NCBI RefSeq assembly: GCF_024298765.1
Contig: NZ_CP101211.1
Length of the DNA: 64,000 nucleotides
From: Escherichia coli
Lineage (GTDB): Bacteria > Pseudomonadota > Gammaproteobacteria > Enterobacterales > Enterobacteriaceae
Reading direction: 5' to 3' (one strand)
A model generated the notes under the pieces. The model saw only the letters and a program-made list of their open reading frames with translations, did no database searches and was not told the origin of the DNA. Positions 20,735 through 64,000 of the stretch are shown here, one piece after another (the stretch's first letter is position 1; each line of letters opens with the position of its first letter). The position numbers and the translations under genes were made by a program.

Positions 20735-23119
20735 TTATACGACCTGCCTGACCATCCTCATCAGAAGGCGGTTTAACAGTCCTTTCGCTGTCGGGCGATT
20801 GCTATCGACATAGTAAAAACCTGTTTTGGTCGTACCGTGAGCACTGCTCAGCACCCTCAGTTCCCAGATAACGTCACGGATAACGCCGCCATTTTCTGGC
20901 TTAAGGCATTCAGATAAATGGCGCATGAAACGAGCTCTTACGGCACGGTAATAGCGGAACTCCTCTGGCTGGTTAGTATTTTCTTTCACCCGGAGTCGCT
21001 GGTTACACAGAGTTAGAACTGCATCCATCATTCCCGCCTTCAGCTTCGCCTGGATCGCACCTTGTTGCTGTTCCCTCTCACCTTCGAGTAACGTTAAGAT
21101 TCTTTCTCCGAGTGCCGTCTTGTTGTGTACGTGCAACTGTACACAGGCAGCTACGCATGCCCAGAATCTGAACTTTTTTATCTGTCCACGCAATTTCCGG
21201 GCTACAACCTGACGGTATGCAGTATCGCTGAGTATTTTAAAACGCCGACTGGCAACCAGCTCTGGAAGCGACACTCTTTCGCCTATCCCCAGGCGGGAAA
21301 AGGTTTGTCCCCGTTGTGCGAGACGATGATAGACAGCGCCCTTCCCTTTTGAAATTCGGACCGCGCCATAACGAAGAAGATACTGAGCAGCAGTCGTTGG
21401 AGTAAACTCACCGTCAGCGATGCTCTGGCGTAACCCGTCGTATTCATGCCAGATAATCCAGGACGCCGTATCTTCTTCAACAGTCAGCTCATCCTCTTCC
21501 TCGAATGCCACGACGACAGAACTGCTCTCTCCGGTCTTTAGGCTACGTGAAGCCCTGGGGTCAGCCTGCCCGTCAAAATAGGTCATCAGCGGCAACGTAT
21601 CAGTCAGTCCATCATAAGCTGTACCGAACCGGCCTCCGGGCAGTTTCATCCAGAGTGGAGCTGGCATTGGTGTACGGGCCACAGGCAGCATGTCAGGCTC
21701 ATCCTCAAGAAGGTCCAGATCGGCCTCTTCCCAGACTCTGCGATAGATCTCAATTGCCCGAAACGGGCGAGGGTTGAAACAGTGCAACGACCAGAGGAAA
21801 TCAACGTGGATCACGTTTGCTTCATGTACAAGCCGAAATTGTGGCTCAGCCATACGACGGTTATAAGCCGTATCGTCCACCTCGCCGGAAAGTAGCTTTC
21901 TGCGATGCTTTGCCGCACGTCTGGCTTCAACATAATCAAGGCTGCAACAGACATGAAAAAGACGTTCAGTCAGGGACGAAGAAAAGATATTGGGTTGAAG
22001 ACGCACATACCCGCCTTCGAACACTTTACGACCGATATAATCCCGCAGGCTCCAGTCGTACTGGATCTTAGAAAGAAATCGCTGAAGACGACTTAGGCCT
22101 GCCTGATAACCATATTTCTCAGGGTCAGTGCGAAGGAGCGTTTCCATTGAATGGTCAACCCCTACGGCTGTGCAAAGCGAGCACCCATATCTAGCCCCAC
22201 AAGCTGAGGTTCGCGTGGGTTTCTCCGGCGACCAGATACACTCTCCGGTGGCGTCTTTATAAAGCGTTGCCAGGCTGAAGTTATCCGGCATAAAGCTTGG
22301 TAAAGGGAAGCGGGATTCGGAACCACAGGCCATTAGAAAAGACCAGATGTCCTGAGTGCGCCACTCCTTTACTGGATAGAGTTCACCACCGTGCTCAGTC
22401 AGGGTTACTTTCCTCGCCTGCCCTCCCATTTTGAGGATATTTCCGGCCCTTCGGGCACTTTCATCATCCCTGGAGCCCAGCATCAGGCATACCCTGCTTC
22501 GTACGGATGCCGGGGCGTTTTTTAGATAACGAGCTTTGGCCTTGCGCAGGGGGGCGATTTTGTAGTCGGTTGAGCACTGACGGGTTGAAGAATTAGTCCA
22601 GGTCGGAAGTCCACGTCCAGTCAGAATGCGGCCTACCCAGCTCTGCGTAAGAGACGGTTGGGCGACAAGGACTGTGACCGGTAGCTGGTGTTCAGCAATG
22701 AACATTCTAAGCTGGTTGAGAACCTGTGAAGCCTGATAGTGCATCTCAGGGTTTTCGATCAGCGTATCGGACATCTGAATGAAATGATGTTCGCTGATAT
22801 TTGTGCCGTTACGTACTGCCCTGATCAATGCCATCAGAAATAGGTGAAGAAGAGAATGGGAGTCTTTACCGCCACTGTATCCCACGCACATCGTCCATCC
22901 GTCCGTAATAGCCTGATAAATAGCAGATGTGGCTGACGTGACCAGAGAAGAAAGACTCACAGTCTCCTTTTCATCGGTATAGTTCAGATCGGCATCGGTT
23001 GTCAGGGTCTCCCAAACATCAGCCCATTTATCATGTTTCAAAATGGCAGCATTAGCCGCCTCAGGAAAAATAACTTCTGAGGGTAATTCAAGGAATGAGT
23101 CACTTTTTTCAATAAACAT
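20735..23119 (-). CDS. PAPS reductase-like PP-loop protein with long C-terminal extension (IbrA/DndC-like, 794 aa)
   Basis: PP-loop motif GYSGGKDS near N-terminus; size and architecture like IbrA-type PAPS-reductase/DUF3440 proteins. Confidence 0.7.
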   Translation of the reverse strand: MFIEKSDSFLELPSEVIFPEAANAAILKHDKWADVWETLTTDADLNYTDEKETVSLSSLVTSATSAIYQAITDGWTMCVGYSGGKDSHSLLHLFLMALIRAVRNGTNISEHHFIQMSDTLIENPEMHYQASQVLNQLRMFIAEHQLPVTVLVAQPSLTQSWVGRILTGRGLPTWTNSSTRQCSTDYKIAPLRKAKARYLKNAPASVRSRVCLMLGSRDDESARRAGNILKMGGQARKVTLTEHGGELYPVKEWRTQDIWSFLMACGSESRFPLPSFMPDNFSLATLYKDATGECIWSPEKPTRTSACGARYGCSLCTAVGVDHSMETLLRTDPEKYGYQAGLSRLQRFLSKIQYDWSLRDYIGRKVFEGGYVRLQPNIFSSSLTERLFHVCCSLDYVEARRAAKHRRKLLSGEVDDTAYNRRMAEPQFRLVHEANVIHVDFLWSLHCFNPRPFRAIEIYRRVWEEADLDLLEDEPDMLPVARTPMPAPLWMKLPGGRFGTAYDGLTDTLPLMTYFDGQADPRASRSLKTGESSSVVVAFEEEDELTVEEDTASWIIWHEYDGLRQSIADGEFTPTTAAQYLLRYGAVRISKGKGAVYHRLAQRGQTFSRLGIGERVSLPELVASRRFKILSDTAYRQVVARKLRGQIKKFRFWACVAACVQLHVHNKTALGERILTLLEGEREQQQGAIQAKLKAGMMDAVLTLCNQRLRVKENTNQPEEFRYYRAVRARFMRHLSECLKPENGGVIRDVIWELRVLSSAHGTTKTGFYYVDSNRPTAKGLLNRLLMRMVRQVV

Positions 23120-44680: not shown

Positions 44681-46312
44681 CTGACGACGGTAGAGACTCA
44701 ATACCCTAACCCCTGACAACAGAAGTGAGCTTAGAGGTGTTACGCTGCTGTCACCTAATGCTTGGGAATTGCCTGACTCACAACCATTGTCATCCGGAGC
44801 TACTGATTAACGTTGAACCGCTGGACTTTAATGACAGTGGTAGTGATGGATAGGCTCATTTCCATTGTCGTCATTTTATCGGACAAGCCTCTTCGTCCTA
44901 CAGGTTTAAGCTGACAATGGTAGTGATTGGATGATCTCACTACTGTTGTCACTCAGTTCTTTGAGCGGACCCTTCCCTCGGTTGGTCGGCATTAACAACG
45001 GTAGTGACTCGATTGGCTCACTGCCATTGTCATCGTGTAAATGACGTACCTTATCAGCTCAGCTGAAAGCAATGACAACGGTAGTGACTCTAATTGCTCA
45101 CTGCCATTGTCGTCGTGTCTATTGAGAGCCTTATCAGTGCACCTGAAAAGCAATGACAACGGTAGTGACTCTAATTGCTCACTGCCATTGTCGTCGTGTC
45201 TATTGAGAGCCTTATCAGTGCACCTGAAAAGCAATGACAACGGTAGTGATTCTAATGGCTCACTACCGTTGTCACCGTGTGTATTGAGAGGATGGTCCAC
45301 TTAACTGGACGTATATGACAATGGTAGTGACTTTAATAGCTCACTACCATTGTCGGTGTGTGAATTGAGAGGATGAGCAGCTCAGCTGTACGTCCATGAC
45401 AATGGTAATGACTTAATGAGCTCACTACCGTTGTCACCCTGTTAATTAAGAGGCTCATCTGCTCTTCTGGAAGGCTATGACAACGGAAGTGACTTGCTGG
45501 GCTCACTGCCATTGTCGCCGTATGAATTGAGAGGATCATCCGCTCTTCTGGATGGCAATGACAACGGTAATGACTTAATAGGCTCACTACCATTGTCACC
45601 CTGTGAATTGAGAGGATGATCTGCTTAACCAGACGGCCATGACAACGGTAGTGACTTTCTGGGCTCAATACCGTTGTCACCCTGTGAGTTAAGAGGTTGA
45701 CCCGCTCTACTGGACGGCCATGACAACGGTAGTCACTTTCTGGGCTCACTACCGTTGTCACCCTGTGAGTTAAGAGGTTGACCCGCTCTACTGGACGGCC
45801 ATGACAACGGTAGTCACTTTCTGGGCTCACTACCGTTGTCGCCATATAGAATGAGAGGAGCATCAGCTCAACTGAACGGCAATGACTACAGTAATGAGCT
45901 GGATGAAGCATAACCATTGACATCTGGCCCAACCGGAAGCCGTATTCGCCAATCCAATCGAGATTCACAATGGCCGTGACTCGCCGCATTAAGTTCCGGT
46001 GTCCTCCCAAAGCTGAACGCACACTCGGAGGACAATGACAATGCCAGTAAGGTACACATCATTACCATTGTCACTATAGCTACCAGAGAAGCCGGGATTT
46101 GAATGTCGATGGTAGTGAGTGGGTCAACTCACTGCCATTGTCACCCCGTTACGATATTTTCCGTTGGATGTACTGGCCAATGAAGTAAAGCGTAGAAACC
46201 GGGTGTTAACAGGTGACTCAGGAGAAAGCGTTGAATTTCGCAATCTCGATCTACATAGGGTGGTAGAGAACAATGACAACGGTAATGACTTTTGACTCAT
46301 TACCGTTGACGT
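44681..46312. repeat. tandem array of about 20 x 81-bp repeats, each with an inverted pair of iteron-like 15-mers (TGACAACGGTAGTGA / TCACTACCGTTGTCA)
   Basis: exact 81-bp periodicity visible (e.g. 45069, 45150, 45231); adjacent units identical or near-identical. Confidence 0.85.
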
Positions 46313-46385
46313 GAAAGAGCGGGCTGGGACTAACGAAAATCGAAGAAGTAATTTAGCACCCGGAGCCTAAACCGCCGGGTTAACT

Positions 46386-47474
46386 TTAGCTGGCGTTGCT
46401 GTTCTTTTTCTGGCTTCGAAGACTACGAATATAGCGCAGTTCTTCAGCGGTTAAATCATGGACGGTAAGAACATCATCGCCGTCAATCGGGTCAGCTGGT
46501 GGGCATAACTCACCTTCTAAAACAGAAGACCCTGAGTTCTCTTCTTCATCTTCAACCACTTCTAAAGGAGGCTGAGTATTGTTCAAATTCAGATCGGGAT
46601 CCCGCTTATGAATCTGGAAGTATACTTTTCCGTCTTTCTTAATTTCGGTGTACTTGAGGTATCCTATCGATGCCAACTCTTCAAGAGCCTTTCTCACGGT
46701 AGCATTCTGACTATTTGCTCGTGTTTTGAGGTTCAGACGATTTTTCAGCCGAGTAAGGGATATCGGTATAGGATTTGGCGGTAATGACTCTATGAACGTA
46801 TAGAGAGCCTGGGCGCTTTCCTTCTTGGCCAACTCCTTAATTGCCTTCAGCTGCATCAAAACCTTATGATCGTATTGATAGAGCTCGAAAATCTTAGGAT
46901 CAACCTGAAGGACAACCTGATCTGATTCCGGGTCTAACAGGGCAGACTGTACCAGATGCGTTGTATAGACTTTGGACGAGTTATTACTGGTGAACGACAA
47001 GGTAACGGATGCTAACCTGCGTAAGGAGGCGTCTATACGTTTTCTGGACGCTGTAGATGAGCGATAATTTTCAGGCGTACATAGCTTGAGGAATTCAGTG
47101 AATTTTAAGCTTATCGTGTCATTGTTAATCGGATGATTGGCATAGGTTCGAATGATGCCCATCCACGTCTTAAAATCTACTGACATATTAAGACGCTCAC
47201 CGACAATTGAAATATTGGTGAACCCCTCGCTCTCCATTAAAGAGAGCGTCTGTAACTCTTTCGTTGCGTCAAAGCCAACCGTTTTATATTCCCGATTTTG
47301 ACGCCCCACACTCTTTGGTGATGGGACGAACAGCCCGAGCCGCATCAAAGCAATAGACTGCACCGTACGGTTGCTGTTAGGACGCAAAATGATGTCTTTA
47401 CCTGATTCTTTCTCTCTAACAGAGAAAGCCCTGGTGACCAGGTCCTGCTGCTCAGTATCTTTCTCTTTAGTCAT
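46386..47474 (-). CDS. repA: RepFIB-family replication initiator RepA (362 aa)
   Basis: ESAQALYTFIESLP.P.PISL.RL..RLNLK and N-terminal NTVQ..ALMRLG.FVP match RepFIB/P1-type RepA; flanked by iterons. Confidence 0.85.
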   Translation of the reverse strand: MTKEKDTEQQDLVTRAFSVREKESGKDIILRPNSNRTVQSIALMRLGLFVPSPKSVGRQNREYKTVGFDATKELQTLSLMESEGFTNISIVGERLNMSVDFKTWMGIIRTYANHPINNDTISLKFTEFLKLCTPENYRSSTASRKRIDASLRRLASVTLSFTSNNSSKVYTTHLVQSALLDPESDQVVLQVDPKIFELYQYDHKVLMQLKAIKELAKKESAQALYTFIESLPPNPIPISLTRLKNRLNLKTRANSQNATVRKALEELASIGYLKYTEIKKDGKVYFQIHKRDPDLNLNNTQPPLEVVEDEEENSGSSVLEGELCPPADPIDGDDVLTVHDLTAEELRYIRSLRSQKKNSNAS

Positions 47475-47599
47475 AATAAGTTATCACTGAATGTGTAAAC
47501 AGATTGGTGAATAGTAAGCCCCAGCGAACTCTATGTCACTGGATGGATCATTGTGATGATCCATATCTGTGCATAAGTTCTACCTAAAAAAACGACTCC

Positions 47600-48250
47600 A
47601 CTCATTAAAACTTGGCAAAAACTCTTTGCATACAATGACCTGCAACTCTTATCAACAACGGATCAGATCAAGTTAAAAAGATCTAATGAAAAGTCACTAC
47701 TATTGTCGCTCTGATCACTACTGATGTCAAAAAACTCATTACCAACGTTATAATAATCACTACTAATGTCAAAATAATCACTACTGTTGTCACTGATCAC
47801 GTCTCAGGCCTTGTGCCGTCTGGCCTGGAGGCAGCGGGGATCTCTTTTGATCTATCAGGAACACTAAGGTACTAATTATTGGAACTACCTTGTGGAAAAT
47901 GGGGATAAATAAATGCTTAGTTCTTATACAGGTCTCAACTTGCCTCCCTGATAAAAACTGTCGTCAAAGCTAAATCACAGCCACAGGCATTTTCGGTGGA
48001 TAAATTTTTGAGAAATAGAAGCATACATGCAGACTCGTGTCGCAAGTAATTGAAAGTAATGATTTATTTAAATAATGCGAGTCACCTTACCTCACAGTGG
48101 AAGTTTAAGTCTAACCTCACTACCATTGTCACTTAAAATCATTACCAACGTCGAAATAGTCTCTACCATTGTCTTTTAAGTCACTCCCGTTGTCACTTAT
48201 GTCGCTACTGTTGTCAGTGACAATGCTCCAGCCCAGTAACCATGCGGCCT
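47600..48250. other. putative iteron-type replication origin
   Basis: two sets of ~5 direct iterons (TCACTACYRTTGTCA, ~21-23 bp spacing) at 47693-47800 and 48116-48228; GATC cluster at 47661-47690; AT-rich spacer. Confidence 0.6.
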
Positions 48251-58094: not shown

Positions 58095-59258
58095 TTATTC
58101 TGCGTCCGGCTGTGGGTCAGTATCCTGATCGGTCTCTTCCCCTGCCTTCTTAGCATTTTTTTTACGTGGGTATTTTGGCTTCTCACCATTAAGTTTTGCC
58201 TGACGATTCTCCGCACGGCGAAGCTGCTTGTTCTCTGATTCTGTGATCTCTTTTGAAAGATTTCTCAACATCTCCAGAGTACTGCGGTTCAACGTAATGT
58301 TGATTTCTTCGTCAGCACTTGAATCTGTCAGCTCCGGCAATTCAATATCCCCCAGTTTCTGTAATAAGCTGGTGGTGATGAGTTTGACGCCTTCTACGGC
58401 TTTTGTGGCAATAACCGGCGGAATCCGTGCTGGCTTGAAGTCTGAAGGTCTGACTCGTACCTGACCATGTTGGGTTTTTTTCACCGTGATGCCATTCGCA
58501 TCGGCCTGCTCAAGTTCTGCGATCATCTTCTTGATACGTGAAATTGCTTCTGTTTCGCCGAGCTCATCGATCAGTGAAAGCACGTTAACATACGAAATAG
58601 CGTCAGCATGAATCCATTTCTTGATAACAACAGAACAGGTTGTCAGGCGGATAAGAGAACTGATGGTCGTCGGGCTTTTATTTTCACGTTGAGCAATTCG
58701 TTCGAGTGACCAGCCAGCAAGAGAATGTAGGCGACGATAGGACTCGCCAAGCGCAACAGGAGAAAGCGCAAGACCACGGTTACCATCAATGGTCGCGAGC
58801 TCACAGCCAATTTCATCTTCTTTAATCTCAACGCAAAGGATTGTGATGTCATGATCTTCATCACATGCCATCATTGCGGCTTTTAAACGGCAGTGCCCCT
58901 GGCGAACAAAAGGTACCCCATCAATGACACGTACTCGGATAGGGTCTACATAGTCACCTCGAATGTAGGCATTCTTGATGTTGTAGATGTGTTCTTCAAC
59001 CTCAGGGAGCTTATAGTAATCGTCACCCATTCCCATTTCGCGGGAGTTGAAGCCTGGCGTGACCTGAATTACTGAAGGGTGGATAGCCCATGCTTTCTGG
59101 TCACTTACTTCAGTACAAAGTTCAGGGTTTGCATCACGGAACTGTTTAAGCCCAGTGACGTAACGGCCTGTGCCAGTAACTACTGAAAAGGCAACATGGG
59201 CCGTTTTAAAGACCTTGTCATTAGCTTGCTGTGTAGGTTCTGTCAGTAAAACACTCAT
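58095..59258 (-). CDS. ParB-like nuclease domain protein (387 aa)
   Basis: GVPFVRQGHCRLKAA ParB box; paralog of 5063..6247. Confidence 0.75.
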   Translation of the reverse strand: MSVLLTEPTQQANDKVFKTAHVAFSVVTGTGRYVTGLKQFRDANPELCTEVSDQKAWAIHPSVIQVTPGFNSREMGMGDDYYKLPEVEEHIYNIKNAYIRGDYVDPIRVRVIDGVPFVRQGHCRLKAAMMACDEDHDITILCVEIKEDEIGCELATIDGNRGLALSPVALGESYRRLHSLAGWSLERIAQRENKSPTTISSLIRLTTCSVVIKKWIHADAISYVNVLSLIDELGETEAISRIKKMIAELEQADANGITVKKTQHGQVRVRPSDFKPARIPPVIATKAVEGVKLITTSLLQKLGDIELPELTDSSADEEINITLNRSTLEMLRNLSKEITESENKQLRRAENRQAKLNGEKPKYPRKKNAKKAGEETDQDTDPQPDAE

Positions 59259-59606: not shown

Positions 59607-60440
59607 TTGACTCGACATCTCAGACACATGCCGATAATCAAATGGGCTGGTGGAAAAACGAAACTGATGCCTTTCATCAGCCATCACTACCCACACGATC
59701 ATAGTTGCCGGTGGGTAGAACCCTTTATAGGCGGTGGTGCCGTTTTTCTGAACATGTTTGCACAAAATGCATTGCTTGCAGATAGCAATCCAGACTTGAT
59801 CAACCTATACAGGACTATTCAAAGACAGAAAACTAACTTTATAAATCAGGTCCAAAACTTGGCGGATAAAACCTTTGTCGAAAAGGACTACTATGAGATG
59901 AGGGACCGTTTCAACAAAACCTGTATTTCTGGTCAATCGCTTCAAAGAGCGGCTTTGTTTTACTCCCTGAATCGCCTGGGCTATAACGGTATGTGCCGCT
60001 ATAACTCAGAAAGAATCTATTCAGTGCCGTGGGGGAAACATACAGAACTGAAGCTTGACCTCAATAAAATAGACTACCTTTCATTTCGTCTTTCAGGTAT
60101 TGAACTGATCACCGCTGGTTTTGAGGAGACTCTGGCCGCAACCGGTGAAGGAGATCAGATTTACTGTGATCCGCCATATGACAAAACAAGCAAAACTAGT
60201 TTTGTCAGTTACGATGGTAAACCGTTCAGCCAAAGCGACCACGTGCTGTTAGCAAATATGCTCGTTGACGCTCACAGAAAAGGCGCTGCTGTTGCGATAT
60301 CAAATAGCCTGACATCATTCACTTTGGGCCTCTATGAAGAGCGTGGATTCGTCATACACAGACTCAGCGCTTACCGATCCGTAGGAAGTAAGCCGAATAC
60401 ACGGAAAACGGAAACAGAAATACTGGCCGTGCTGAAATAG
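59607..60440 (+). CDS. Dam-family N6-adenine DNA methyltransferase (orphan)
   Basis: IKWAGGK N-terminal motif, EPF.GGGAVFLN, NRLGYNGMCRYN and DPPY catalytic motif as in E. coli Dam; true start may be the ATG at 59628. Confidence 0.85.
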   Translation: MTRHLRHMPIIKWAGGKTKLMPFISHHYPHDHSCRWVEPFIGGGAVFLNMFAQNALLADSNPDLINLYRTIQRQKTNFINQVQNLADKTFVEKDYYEMRDRFNKTCISGQSLQRAALFYSLNRLGYNGMCRYNSERIYSVPWGKHTELKLDLNKIDYLSFRLSGIELITAGFEETLAATGEGDQIYCDPPYDKTSKTSFVSYDGKPFSQSDHVLLANMLVDAHRKGAAVAISNSLTSFTLGLYEERGFVIHRLSAYRSVGSKPNTRKTETEILAVLK

Positions 60441-61537: not shown

Positions 61538-62254
61538 TTAACTGTCTTGGAGTTTATTTAACTTAAAAACTGTTATTGCAGCATAATTTTTCGAATCAAA
61601 TTCATAGAATTTTCTGACTTTTCCAGTCAAATGATAACGTTCACCCAATAAAATGTGATCCTGTTTATCGGCCGTTAAAGCGATCCCGTCATTTCTAACT
61701 TTACCAGTAAATGTAAAAAAATAACTCCCTTTACTTTTTGCGTACGCGGCCCTGACTTCAGTAAATGTTAGTTCAATGCTTATGACCTGGCCGATATTGT
61801 AGCTATGTTTTAAAATTTCTTGTTCATTTTCCGGAGTTTCAGACAACATCACATCAAAAGTTGTAAAGAAACAATCCAGCTGGCGTTCTGTCAAGAAACG
61901 GTTATTGTCTAATTGCGCCAATATACTATTAGAAAACTTAGTGTTAGCCTTTTTTGCTTTCTCAATAAGGACGTGGTTTCTGGATTTCCATGCTTCGAGT
62001 GTTGGGTTAACACGCAGTTCCGGAATGTTATCGAGAAAGGTAATTGGCTCTAGTGCCACTAATTTTTCAATAATGGGTCCAACTGTTTGTACCCCATGAC
62101 ACTTTTCACATAAATCAGCCCCTTTGTGGCCTGTGCCCGCACATTCGTTACATTCTCTTTCGATAGGTGCATAATAATTTCCATCTCCGTTAAGTGATAC
62201 ATTCACTGAGGCTGGTACCATATGACCATCAAGAGTAAAGAAAAGAGATTTCAT
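61538..62254 (-). CDS. zinc-ribbon protein (238 aa)
   Basis: CNECAGTGHKGADLCEKCHG (CxxC...CxxC). Confidence 0.5.
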   Translation of the reverse strand: MKSLFFTLDGHMVPASVNVSLNGDGNYYAPIERECNECAGTGHKGADLCEKCHGVQTVGPIIEKLVALEPITFLDNIPELRVNPTLEAWKSRNHVLIEKAKKANTKFSNSILAQLDNNRFLTERQLDCFFTTFDVMLSETPENEQEILKHSYNIGQVISIELTFTEVRAAYAKSKGSYFFTFTGKVRNDGIALTADKQDHILLGERYHLTGKVRKFYEFDSKNYAAITVFKLNKLQDS

Positions 62255-62468: not shown

Positions 62469-63524
62469 TTAATATTCCTTAAGGAGATCTCGAATTTCCA
62501 GAAGCTCTTCTAATTTTGGTTTAGAAACAATGATTGCTGTATTTTCGTCGTTAAGTAAAGACAATAAAATATTTAGCTTTTCATCATTCAAGATTATTTG
62601 AACACCATCATTGGAAAATATTACATTATTACTATTAACATTTTTGAACAAGTGTGCACTATCTCTACCAAATTTTAGTTCTGTTTGAGTATTCGTTATA
62701 GATTCCGTATGTGTACTTTCCACAAGCTCAAGAAATTCAGATTTTAGCCGTTCTGTTTTCTTATGCGAGAGGCGCTTAATACCCAAAGTCTTACGAGTGA
62801 CTGCCGAATTTTTCTTTTCTGGTCCGCCTTTATTTAAGGTGTCTGGTCCTGCTCCAGCTGCATTGTGTTCAGGTATGCCTACAATTTTGCTCGTTGTAGT
62901 CTCAATATTCTTAACGCCAGGTAAGAAACCTTCTATATGTTTTAAAACCATTTTGTGATCGTTGGAATATTTTAACATTATTTCAATGGCGAGCGTTTTT
63001 TTGATTAGATTTAGGCTAATCAAATGTTGAAGCTCTAATGGCATATCAAGGATTTTTAGCATATTACGAATTGCGGTAGTTGATCGTTGATATCGCATTG
63101 CTAGTTCTTCAACCGAATACCCGAGACTAACAGCATGAGCTAATGCATGAGCTTGCCCAACCGGATTTAGCCCATTGCTTCTGTTACCATCGAGGTTCTC
63201 AAGGTATTCTTCAATTTCGTTTTTATAATCGATTAGGATAACAGATAATTTTGGAATATTAGCACCTTCAGAAATTGCTAATTTTAAGCCATGAAAACGA
63301 GTATGACCTTGACGAACTAAATATTTACCTTTTCTTTTTACGACCTTGATCATATCAACCTGCCTTCCTTCCTTAAAGGCTTGTTTGATTGACACAATCA
63401 TCGACTTGACAGGTTCTTGTTCGTAACACAAATCTCCGATTACCGCCTCTCGGGGATTAAATCCCTTTTCAATTTCAACTAGATTAGTATCCACTTCAAT
63501 GACTGTATGTTTGCTGTTGTTCAT
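62469..63524 (-). CDS. ParB-like nuclease domain protein (351 aa)
   Basis: GFNPRE and YLVRQGHTRFHG ParB-box signatures. Confidence 0.75.
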   Translation of the reverse strand: MNNSKHTVIEVDTNLVEIEKGFNPREAVIGDLCYEQEPVKSMIVSIKQAFKEGRQVDMIKVVKRKGKYLVRQGHTRFHGLKLAISEGANIPKLSVILIDYKNEIEEYLENLDGNRSNGLNPVGQAHALAHAVSLGYSVEELAMRYQRSTTAIRNMLKILDMPLELQHLISLNLIKKTLAIEIMLKYSNDHKMVLKHIEGFLPGVKNIETTTSKIVGIPEHNAAGAGPDTLNKGGPEKKNSAVTRKTLGIKRLSHKKTERLKSEFLELVESTHTESITNTQTELKFGRDSAHLFKNVNSNNVIFSNDGVQIILNDEKLNILLSLLNDENTAIIVSKPKLEELLEIRDLLKEY

Positions 63525-63729
63525 ATCTTCCTCCTGTTTACTACATGATACATGAACCTCAAATTTGCCAAATAGGGCTGATACATCTAAAAGGTAAACT
63601 CAAAAAATTTGCTTAATAAAATTAAAATAAAAACTGTCTTGAATAAAACAATGATAGTAGACCCTCGTTCATTTCCGTTTGCGATCTGTAGATATTGTTA
63701 AAGGAGCGCTATTCCTTGTTTTATATGGA

Positions 63730-63960
63730 CTTATCATTGTTTTCAACAGGATAGATCAATTCTTTAGATCACTAAAGATCAATAGAGTTCAAGTAAAGAT
63801 CACGGCATCTTTAACTCATTGATTATAGTGACTTTATGAAAGGATCCGGCATTCGGATGCATGCGAAAAGCATTTGAATGAATAAGGAAGGCATTTACTG
63901 GAATGCTTATGGCATTTAGGTTAATGCGTAAAAAGCATTTGCAAGAATATGTTATAAACA
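63730..63960. repeat. GATC-rich (AGATCA x4) and GCATTT-repeat region
   Basis: four AGATCA within ~60 bp, then five GCATTT in ~90 bp; upstream of ParB-like gene. Confidence 0.4.
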
Positions 63961-64000
63961 GTTTGCCAAATGAAAATCTTATCACCGACGAGTTAAGTTA

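What the first reader, a model, noticed from the sequence alone, without database searches (positions are those of the whole stretch)
63730..63960. GATC-rich and GCATTT-repeat region at the window edge upstream of a ParB-like gene
Four AGATCA motifs within ~60 bp are followed by five GCATTT repeats in ~90 bp. This could be a Dam-regulated promoter, a centromere-like site or part of a transfer or replication origin. It is truncated by the window end.
Basis: seen in the sequence. Interest (0 to 1): 0.35.

Follow-up and report, generated by a model that had tools for sequence, protein, structure and literature searches.

The report
IncHI2 plasmid replication origin (P1-like)
The GATC-rich stretch and the GCATTT repeats are the core of a plasmid replication origin of the well-known P1/RepFIB/RepHI1A type, and the initiator gene starts one base after the window ends, so the finding is real but ordinary.

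Summary
Four AGATCA motifs lie at 63753-63802. Five phased repeats follow: four exact GCATTT plus one GCATTC, spaced 21, 21, 21 and 23 bp. No shuffle out of 500 reached either cluster.

The window is an IncHI2 resistance plasmid, and it ends exactly where many deposited records end. Base 64001 is the ATG of a Rep3-family initiator that is 44.6% identical to phage P1 RepA and about 87% identical to the IncHI1 RepHI1A-type Rep.

The region matches the curated P1 oriR map almost base for base. The order is DnaA-box-like 9-mers, GATC heptamers in an AT-rich block, five 21-22-bp iterons, rep, then at least ten more iterons downstream.

Between IncHI2 and IncHI1, only the heptamer block (87-91% identity) and the iterons (81-83%) are conserved. 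Spacers and flanks are 41-48% identical.

A Pectobacteriaceae plasmid with a 62% identical Rep and no ParB-like neighbour keeps the AGATCA heptamers but has different iterons. The elements therefore belong to rep, not to the ParB-like gene.

This is the origin of the RepHI1A(R478)-type replicon, named as an autoreplicative region in 2001. It is already known and of low interest.

The parts
63731..63748 (+). Two tandem DnaA-box-like 9-mers, TTATCATTG and TTTTCAACA. They are degenerate here. The aligned IncHI1 sequence is TTATCCACG TTTTCCACA, and P1 has TTATCCACA TTATCCACT at the same place.
   Evidence: Alignment A1; DnaA-box scans; P1 annotation 'protein_bind DnaA' directly left of the Dam sites. 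One-mismatch boxes are not enriched over chance on their own. The support comes from position and homology.
63753..63803 (+). Four AGATCA[A/C] heptamers at 63753-63759, 63766-63772, 63776-63782 and 63797-63803, in a 72% A+T block. They are presumed Dam/SeqA target sites and the presumed site of strand opening.
   Evidence: 0 of 500 shuffles. All four GATC sites are invariant and the block is 87-91% identical to IncHI1, against 41-48% in the flanks. They match the five annotated 'Dam methylation sites' (AGATCC heptamers) of P1 oriR at the same distance from rep. The 40-bp duplex stability, about -43.5 kcal/mol, is at the window's 99th percentile.
63843..63846 (.). A fifth conserved GATC (within GGATCC) abutting the first iteron.
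   Evidence: Present at -158/-159 relative to rep in IncHI2 and in both IncHI1-type homologs.
63845..63952 (+). Five direct iterons, the presumed Rep-binding sites. The 22-bp units start at 63845, 63866, 63887, 63908 and 63931. Consensus AAAGGCATTTnnnTGAATG.
   Evidence: The spacing of 21, 21, 21 and 23 bp compares with 21, 21, 21 and 22 in P1 incC and 21, 21, 21 and 23 in pPrAq2. The array is 81-83% identical to IncHI1. The same motif recurs at least ten times downstream of rep.
63952..63960 (+). Right-hand DnaA-box-like 9-mer TTATAAACA, one mismatch from TTWTNCACA. It aligns with CTATTCACA in IncHI1. A weaker TTATCACCG lies at 63979-63987 and resembles TTATCACCA in P1.
   Evidence: The role is inferred from position only.
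63580..63660 (.). The strongest A+T tract of the intergenic region (82-85% A+T). It is not conserved in sequence with IncHI1. It may hold the promoter of the divergent ParB-like gene, or be an auxiliary unwinding region.
62469..63524 (-). Divergent ParB-like gene (351 aa). It is a neighbour of the origin and is not shown to be part of it.
   Evidence: Its synteny with rep is conserved in IncHI1 but not in pPrAq2 or P1.
59607..60440 (+). Plasmid-borne Dam-family adenine methyltransferase gene, 3.5 kb from the origin. It could supply the methylation of the heptamers.
   Evidence: ORF; RefSeq annotation; same position in IncHI1. The link to the origin is inference only.

Best explanation
Window 63731-63960 is the core of the vegetative replication origin of one of the two IncHI2 replicons. 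It is the one homologous to RepHI1A of IncHI1 plasmids, called RepHI1A(R478), repHIA or 'IncHI2A' in typing schemes. Its initiator gene begins at base 64001, one base beyond the window.

Inferred mechanism, by homology with phage P1 oriR:
1. Rep monomers bind the five iterons. These are phased at two helical turns (21-23 bp).
2. Host DnaA binds the flanking 9-mers.
3. Together they open the adjacent A+T-rich block that carries the four AGATCA heptamers.
4. The GATC sites in that block are methylated by Dam (host or plasmid-encoded). Full methylation favours initiation. The hemimethylated sites made by replication are bound by SeqA, which delays re-initiation.
5. The additional iterons downstream of rep, at least ten in both orientations, titrate or pair ('handcuff') Rep-bound origins. 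This sets copy number and incompatibility.

Shown here: the elements, their statistics, their conservation, the Rep homology and the collinearity with the curated P1 map. Inferred: protein binding, the site of opening, Dam/SeqA dependence and handcuffing.
For: (1) The region matches more than 1,100 IncHI2 plasmids at 95-100% identity. Many records end exactly at window base 64000, and the rep CDS starts at the next base.
(2) The product has Rep3 WH1 and WH2 domains. It is 44.6% identical to P1 RepA (E 1e-66) and 86-87% identical to IncHI1 Rep.
(3) The curated P1 record lists, in order, tandem DnaA boxes, five Dam sites, five 19-bp iterons at 21-bp spacing, repA and nine incA iterons. The window has the same order and nearly the same distances. 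Even the junction GGATAGATC is shared.
(4) Conservation between IncHI2 and IncHI1 picks out the elements: heptamer block 87-91% identical, iterons 81-83%, spacers and flanks 41-48%. The distant blastn match covers only 63731-63949.
(5) Six of the seven SNPs between two IncHI2 lineages fall outside the elements.
(6) The iteron motif recurs downstream of rep in IncHI2 (at least 10 copies) and in IncHI1 (3 inverted plus 13 direct).
(7) GATC clusters sit 190-250 nt upstream of rep in every homolog examined: IncHI1, pPrAq2, P1, IncFIB(K) and SSU5. In E. coli IncFIB the cluster is present but lies further upstream. pPrAq2 keeps AGATCA three times but has a different iteron sequence, as expected if iterons co-evolve with Rep.
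(8) Literature: the title of Page et al. 2001 names RepHI2A and RepHI1A(R478) as the two autoreplicative regions of R478 (cited). [quoted passage not shown]
Against: The left DnaA boxes are degenerate in IncHI2: TTATCATTG has three mismatches and TTTTCAACA has one. One-mismatch boxes are no more frequent than chance. No sigma-70-like rep promoter was found by the consensus scan, so autoregulation through the iterons is not shown. No PDB chain matched Rep by sequence. Nothing here demonstrates Rep binding, the opening site, or Dam/SeqA dependence. The plasmid has a second replicon (46386-47474), so this origin may not be the one mainly used. The primary papers on RepHI1A (Newnham & Taylor 1994; Page et al. 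2001) could not be read, so what they mapped is not verified.
Confidence: 0.9

Rival explanations
1. Centromere (parS-like) site. The GCATTT repeats would be binding sites for the divergent ParB-like protein and would serve plasmid partition.
For: The neighbouring gene has a ParB HTH domain and a weak parB_part match. Its synteny with the repeats is kept in IncHI1. Centromeres are often arrays of short repeats near a par promoter.
Against: There is no ParA gene next to it. The same repeat flanks rep on its far side in both orientations, which is the iteron pattern. The second ParB-like paralog (58095-59258) has no such repeats upstream. The homologous five-repeat array with identical spacing sits upstream of rep in pPrAq2 and P1, which have no ParB-like neighbour. 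The ParB-like scores are below the NCBIfam cut-off (33.6 against 58.45 bits).
Confidence: 0.04
2. Dam-regulated promoter. The GATC cluster would switch transcription of the ParB-like gene or of rep according to methylation state, as in pap, traJ or IS10.
For: There are four to five GATC sites in an intergenic region between divergent genes, and a Dam gene lies nearby. Hemimethylation-sensitive promoters are known.
Against: No sigma-70-like promoter was found across the intergenic region (0 found against 2.8 expected). The heptamers lie 230-280 bp from the ParB-like start and about 200-250 bp from the rep start. The same cluster is annotated as origin Dam sites in P1, where the upstream gene is co-directional. 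It is also kept in replicons with unrelated upstream genes.
Confidence: 0.05
3. Origin of transfer (oriT). The repeats and GATC sites would be relaxosome binding sites, because the Tra2 transfer genes begin about 2 kb downstream.
For: The region is close to trhA/traL/traE/traK/trhB. oriT regions are A+T-rich with repeats.
Against: Only mating-pair-formation genes lie nearby, and no relaxase gene is adjacent. The layout is found in non-conjugative P1 and SSU5 prophage-plasmids and in non-mobilizable IncFIB plasmids. From general knowledge, which I could not check here, the IncHI oriT maps to the Tra1 region.
Confidence: 0.01

Closest known systems
Phage P1 plasmid origin oriR (incC-repA-incA)
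   Same: The initiator is homologous (44.6% identity). The order and spacing match: tandem DnaA boxes, GATC heptamers, five iterons at 21-22-bp spacing, rep, then downstream control iterons. The junction GGATAGATC is shared.
   Different: The heptamer is AGATCA[A/C], four copies plus one isolated GATC, against five AGATCC-type sites in P1. The iteron sequence is unrelated (GCATTTnnnTGAATG against GATGTGTGCTGGAGGGAAA). The left DnaA boxes are degenerate. The downstream iterons are more numerous and more widely spread.
RepHI1A replicon of IncHI1 plasmid R27 (Newnham & Taylor 1994) and RepHI1A(R478) (Page et al. 2001)
   Same: This is a direct ortholog. Rep is 86-87% identical. The iteron consensus, heptamers, spacing and gene neighbourhood are the same. 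The window replicon is almost certainly RepHI1A(R478) itself.
   Different: The spacers and the left and right flanks have diverged to 41-48% identity. IncHI1 has canonical DnaA boxes and a longer downstream iteron array (16 copies against about 10). I could not read the primary papers, so I cannot say which elements they mapped.
RepFIB / REPI replicons (pColV-K30, IncFIB, IncFIB(K)) and SSU5-type phage-plasmids
   Same: The Rep proteins are homologous (42-46% identity). GATC clusters with roughly 10-11-bp spacing lie upstream of rep, with a DnaA box nearby. A role for adenine methylation in REPI replication is reported (title cited).
   Different: They have different iterons, more GATC sites (5-7), mostly GATCC, and different distances from rep.
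The second IncHI2 replicon in the same window (repHI2 with 80-81-bp repeats)
   Same: It is a paralog with 43% identical Rep. Its own origin has TTATCCCCA/TTTTCCACA, then AGATCA and AGATCC, then 21-bp iterons.
   Different: It has only two heptamers and a different iteron sequence. It also has eleven or more 81-bp repeats beyond rep, described for R478.
Vibrio cholerae chromosome II origin (oriII / RctB)
   Same: It is an iteron origin with a DnaA box and a high GATC density, and it uses Dam and SeqA.
   Different: The initiator family is unrelated. Its GATC sites lie inside the iterons and govern initiator binding. Here they lie in a separate heptamer block.

Membership tests
Iteron-type theta origin of the P1 RepA / RepFIB / RepHI1A family | Adjacent gene for a Rep3-family (WH1+WH2) initiator homologous to P1 RepA | tested here: met
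   Pfam Rep3_N and Rep3_C are above their cut-offs. tblastn gives 44.6% identity to P1 RepA, E 1e-66. The gene starts at base 64001.
Iteron-type theta origin of the P1 RepA / RepFIB / RepHI1A family | Array of about five direct repeats phased at about two helical turns, immediately upstream of rep | tested here: met
   Five units at 63845-63952 with spacings of 21, 21, 21 and 23 bp; 0 of 500 shuffles reached this. P1 has 21, 21, 21 and 22.
Iteron-type theta origin of the P1 RepA / RepFIB / RepHI1A family | Second set of the same repeats beyond rep (control/incompatibility locus, incA-like) | tested here: met
   At least ten copies in both orientations at L001 8613-9202, beyond the window. IncHI1 has 16.
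Iteron-type theta origin of the P1 RepA / RepFIB / RepHI1A family | Cluster of GATC-containing heptamers in an A+T-rich block between the DnaA boxes and the iterons | tested here: met
   Four AGATCA[A/C] heptamers at 63753-63803 in a 72% A+T block. They are aligned with the annotated P1 Dam sites by distance from rep.
Iteron-type theta origin of the P1 RepA / RepFIB / RepHI1A family | DnaA boxes flanking the core | tested here: inconclusive
   In IncHI2 the 9-mers are degenerate (TTATCATTG, TTTTCAACA, TTATAAACA), and one-mismatch boxes are at chance frequency. The aligned IncHI1 and P1 positions carry near-consensus boxes.
Iteron-type theta origin of the P1 RepA / RepFIB / RepHI1A family | Autonomous replication of the cloned region; Rep binding to iterons; dependence on Dam methylation | not testable with these tools
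   Only indirect support. The title of Page et al. 2001 names RepHI1A(R478) as an autoreplicative region. Titles of the P1 and REPI methylation papers appear.
ParB-parS partition centromere | Repeats associated with a parA-parB operon and tracking the ParB gene rather than other genes | tested here: not met
   No ParA gene is adjacent. The repeats flank rep on both sides. They are absent upstream of the second ParB-like paralog. A homologous array occurs without a ParB-like neighbour in pPrAq2 and P1.
Dam-regulated promoter (pap / traJ / IS10 type) | GATC sites overlapping promoter hexamers or a regulator's binding sites | tested here: not met
   The consensus scan found no sigma-70-like promoter in window 63449-64099 (L001 7050-7700). 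This is a weak test, because non-consensus promoters would be missed.
Conjugative transfer origin (oriT, MOBH) | nic site with adjacent inverted repeats next to relaxase or accessory genes | not tested
   I had no MOBH nic consensus to search with. Against by context only: there is no adjacent relaxase gene, and the same layout occurs in non-conjugative P1 and SSU5.

The most novel reading that the evidence does not exclude
The plasmid's own Dam methyltransferase gene (59607-60440) keeps its position about 3.5 kb from this GATC-heptamer origin in both IncHI1 and IncHI2. It may exist to methylate the origin heptamers. That would make initiation at this replicon independent of host Dam, or tie it to plasmid gene expression, for example to the temperature-dependent physiology of IncHI plasmids. 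The syntenic ParB-like protein might also modulate the origin, as ParB2 does at Vibrio cholerae oriII. The conservation of bases beyond GATC (AGATCA, and the invariant spacer ATTCTTT) would then point to a second reader of the heptamers besides Dam and SeqA, such as Rep binding to the unwound strand.
Probability: 0.12. Interest if true: 0.4.

Novelty: already known. Interest (0 to 1): 0.1.

Why it matters
This region sets the replication, copy number and incompatibility of IncHI2 plasmids. More than 1,100 sequenced Salmonella, E. coli and Enterobacter plasmids carry it nearly unchanged, and papers in the library describe IncHI2 plasmids carrying resistance genes such as mcr-9. Current RefSeq records annotate nothing under it (one search lists 'none'), so an explicit element map has some annotation value. 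Biologically it only confirms that the P1 oriR design, including the Dam-site heptamers, is shared across the whole RepA/RepFIB/RepHI1A family. It opens no new question.

Tried and rejected
- A megablast search of the phage collection with the DNA gave no match.
- The Rfam scan of the origin, rep and the downstream region found nothing at E<=1, so no known antisense or regulatory RNA is detected.
- The sigma-70 promoter scan found no site. By eye I found only weak candidates for a rep promoter inside the iterons, so I leave the promoter unassigned.
- The DnaA-box scan with one mismatch is at chance level and counts only together with the alignment.
- Rep had no sequence match in the PDB.
- The R478 reference record BX664015 is not in the collections.
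- Page et al. 2001 and the P1 methylation papers (Abeles & Austin 1987; Abeles et al. 1993) are not held in the library. Newnham & Taylor 1994 I know only from a reference list. Statements about these papers rest on titles, citing reviews and my own knowledge.
- The centromere, oriT and Dam-promoter readings were considered and rejected for the reasons given under rival explanations.
- An isolated iteron-like site at 20902 lies inside a long ORF and was not pursued.

Full report
**What is in the sequence.**
The finding lies in a 476-bp intergenic gap. On its left is a ParB-like gene (62469-63524, minus strand), and on its right is the end of the window.

AGATCA occurs four times on the + strand, at 63753, 63766, 63776 and 63797. 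The whole window has only 32 copies on both strands.

GCATTT occurs exactly four times, at 63870, 63891, 63912 and 63935. A fifth copy is the variant GCATTC at 63849. The spacings are 21, 21, 21 and 23 bp.

In 500 block shuffles that keep local composition, no shuffle reached four AGATCA within 60 bp or five GCATT[TC] within 90 bp. Four bare GATC sites in 60 bp are not unusual (100 of 500 shuffles). The signal is the extended, co-oriented heptamer.

**Where the window comes from, and what lies beyond its edge.**
The last 1.6 kb matches 1,111 plasmid records at 95-100% identity. They are conjugative IncHI2 plasmids of Salmonella, E. coli, Enterobacter and relatives, roughly 180-450 kb in size. 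The phage collection gave no match.

In many records the match ends at the last base of the record. The window edge is therefore simply the conventional coordinate origin of these circular plasmids.

In a record where the site is internal (NZ_CP039861, locus L001), the base after window position 64000 is the ATG of an 876-bp 'RepB family plasmid replication initiator' gene. That gene is followed by a 1.15-kb non-coding stretch and then the Tra2 transfer genes.

The product has Rep3 WH1 and WH2 domains. It is 44.6% identical to RepA of phage P1 over 92% of its length (E 1e-66). It is 86-87% identical to the Rep of IncHI1 plasmids typed IncHI1A and 42-46% identical to IncFIB, IncFIB(K) and SSU5 Reps.

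**The repeats are iterons.**
GCATTT is the left half of a unit with the consensus AAAGGCATTTnnnTGAATG. Five units sit upstream of rep, starting at 63845, 63866, 63887, 63908 and 63931.

The same unit recurs at least ten times in the non-coding stretch downstream of rep. Four copies are inverted, one is palindromic, and the rest are direct.

In the window itself, no other cluster of this motif exists. There is one isolated site at 20902.

In IncHI1 the same motif gives five copies upstream of rep, then three inverted and thirteen direct copies downstream.

**Collinearity with P1 oriR.**
The curated P1 genome record annotates, in order:
- two tandem DnaA boxes;
- five 'Dam methylation sites';
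- five RepA-binding iterons of incC at spacings of 21, 21, 21 and 22 bp, with the repA promoter inside them;
- repA;
- nine incA iterons.

The P1 sequence reads ttATCCACAttATCCACtGGATAGATCC..AGATCC..AGATCC..AGATCC..GATC.

The window reads TTATCATTGTTTTCAACAGGATAGATCA..AGATCA..AGATCA..AGATCA, then a fifth GATC at 63843, and then the five iterons.

Distances from the rep start codon agree closely. The GATC sites lie at -247 to -203 here and at -254 to -203 in P1.

The left 9-mers are degenerate in IncHI2. The aligned IncHI1 sequence is TTATCCACG TTTTCCACA. A right-hand box-like 9-mer, TTATAAACA (63952-63960), aligns with CTATTCACA in IncHI1.

**Conservation marks the functional parts.**
A sensitive blastn search of the intergenic region against all plasmids found 281 distant records.

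In the alignment of IncHI2 with two IncHI1-type sequences, identity to IncHI2 was as follows:

| Segment | Identity |
|---|---|
| Heptamer block | 87-91% |
| Iteron array | 81-83% |
| DnaA-like pair | 72% |
| Left flank | 45-46% |
| Heptamer-iteron spacer | 41-44% |
| Iterons to ATG | 42-48% |

Between two IncHI2 lineages, six of the seven SNPs fall outside the elements.

**The elements travel with rep, not with the ParB-like gene.**
A Pectobacteriaceae plasmid (pPrAq2) has a 62% identical Rep. Its upstream neighbours are an AAA ATPase and a ribbon-helix-helix gene. It still has a consensus DnaA box, three AGATCA heptamers and five repeats spaced 21, 21, 21 and 23 bp. Its repeat sequence is different (GCGGTTACTTTCATAA) and also recurs downstream of rep.

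P1, SSU5, IncFIB and IncFIB(K) replicons all have GATC clusters with roughly one-turn spacing upstream of rep.

The second ParB-like paralog in the window (58095-59258) has no such repeats. The adjacent ParB-like gene has no ParA partner, and its family score is below the curated cut-off.

This argues against the centromere reading. The oriT reading has nothing in its favour beyond proximity to mating-pair genes. The Dam-regulated-promoter reading is weakened by the lack of any sigma-70-like site and by the origin annotation of the equivalent sites in P1.

**Mechanism, and what is inferred.**
By homology with P1, Rep monomers should bind the five phased iterons and DnaA should bind the flanking boxes. 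The duplex should then open in the adjacent heptamer block. That block is 72% A+T, and at its least stable point its 40-bp stability reaches the window's 99th percentile.

The GATC sites would need full methylation for efficient initiation. When hemimethylated after replication, they would be sequestered by SeqA. The support for this is indirect:
- the P1 annotation;
- a title on methylation control of the RepFIB replicon REPI (reference lists).

The rest of this step rests on my own knowledge of the P1 literature.

The downstream iterons would titrate Rep or handcuff origins, and so set copy number and incompatibility. None of these steps was or could be tested here. The rep promoter was not located.

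**Identity with a described replicon.**
The window also holds a second Rep paralog (46386-47474, minus strand; 43% identical). It has its own P1-like origin and at least eleven 81-bp repeats.

A paper in the library describes exactly this for R478: repHI2 with twelve 80-81-bp iterons about 500 bp from rep, citing Gilmour et al. 2004 and Page et al. 2001.

Page et al. [quoted passage not shown] The replicon at the window edge is orthologous to IncHI1 RepHI1A. It is therefore the second of those two regions, and RepHI1A of R27 was analysed by Newnham & Taylor 1994 (cited). I could not read either primary paper.

**Verdict.**
The feature is real, far beyond chance and clearly functional. It is the known origin of a known replicon, and its design was worked out decades ago in P1. 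Novelty: already known. Interest: low.

Two points go slightly beyond the textbook. First, a Dam methyltransferase gene sits about 3.5 kb from the origin in both IncHI1 and IncHI2. Second, bases around the GATC cores are conserved. Both are leads, not findings.

Noticed in passing
window 45000-47910: A second complete replicon. The Rep paralog at 46386-47474 (minus strand) is 43% identical to the edge Rep. Its own P1-like origin lies upstream on the minus strand: TTATCCCCA/TTTTCCACA at 47891-47908, AGATCA at 47848-47853, AGATCC at 47838-47843, and 21-bp iterons at 47714-47792. Beyond the gene, at least eleven 81-bp tandem repeats lie at 45000-45897. This matches the repHI2 replicon with 80-81-bp iterons reported for R478.
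   Followed up: partly
window 59607-60440 (+): A Dam-family adenine methyltransferase gene lies 3.5 kb from the GATC-heptamer origin. Its position and the whole gene order (DUF4942, ParB-like, Dam, hypothetical, zinc-finger-like, small ORF, ParB-like, origin, rep, Tra2) are conserved in IncHI1 (L012).
   Followed up: partly
window 58095-59258 (-) and 62469-63524 (-): Two ParB-like paralogs (HTH_ParB; parB_part below its cut-off) with no adjacent ParA gene. Their function is unknown. Only the second one neighbours the origin.
   Followed up: partly
window 20902-20923 (+): An isolated, high-scoring iteron-like site (TAAGGCATTCAGATAAATGGCG, 21.9 bits) inside a 794-aa ORF (20735-23119, minus strand). 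It could be chance or an orphan Rep-binding site. A comparable lone site occurs in IncHI1 at L012:5045, inside the Dam gene.
   Followed up: no
window 61538-62254 (-): The ORF is annotated 'zinc finger-like domain-containing protein'. It has a sub-threshold DnaJ CXXCXGXG match and is conserved next to the ParB-like gene in IncHI1 and IncHI2. P1 RepA is known to be activated by DnaJ/DnaK, so a DnaJ-like zinc-finger protein beside the replicon is curious.
   Followed up: no
window 63887-63908: The third iteron is nearly palindromic (GCATTtactggAATGC) and scores on both strands (21.5 and 14.9 bits). The iteron unit in general has internal dyad symmetry (GCATT...AATG). This could allow binding of a Rep dimer, acting as an operator, as well as of a monomer.
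   Followed up: no
L012 10620-11184 (IncHI1, downstream of rep): In IncHI1 the downstream control iterons form a regular 43-44-bp tandem array of thirteen direct copies. An annotated hypothetical CDS (L012 10593-10937) overlaps this array and may be spurious. IncHI2 has fewer copies and they are irregularly spaced.
   Followed up: no
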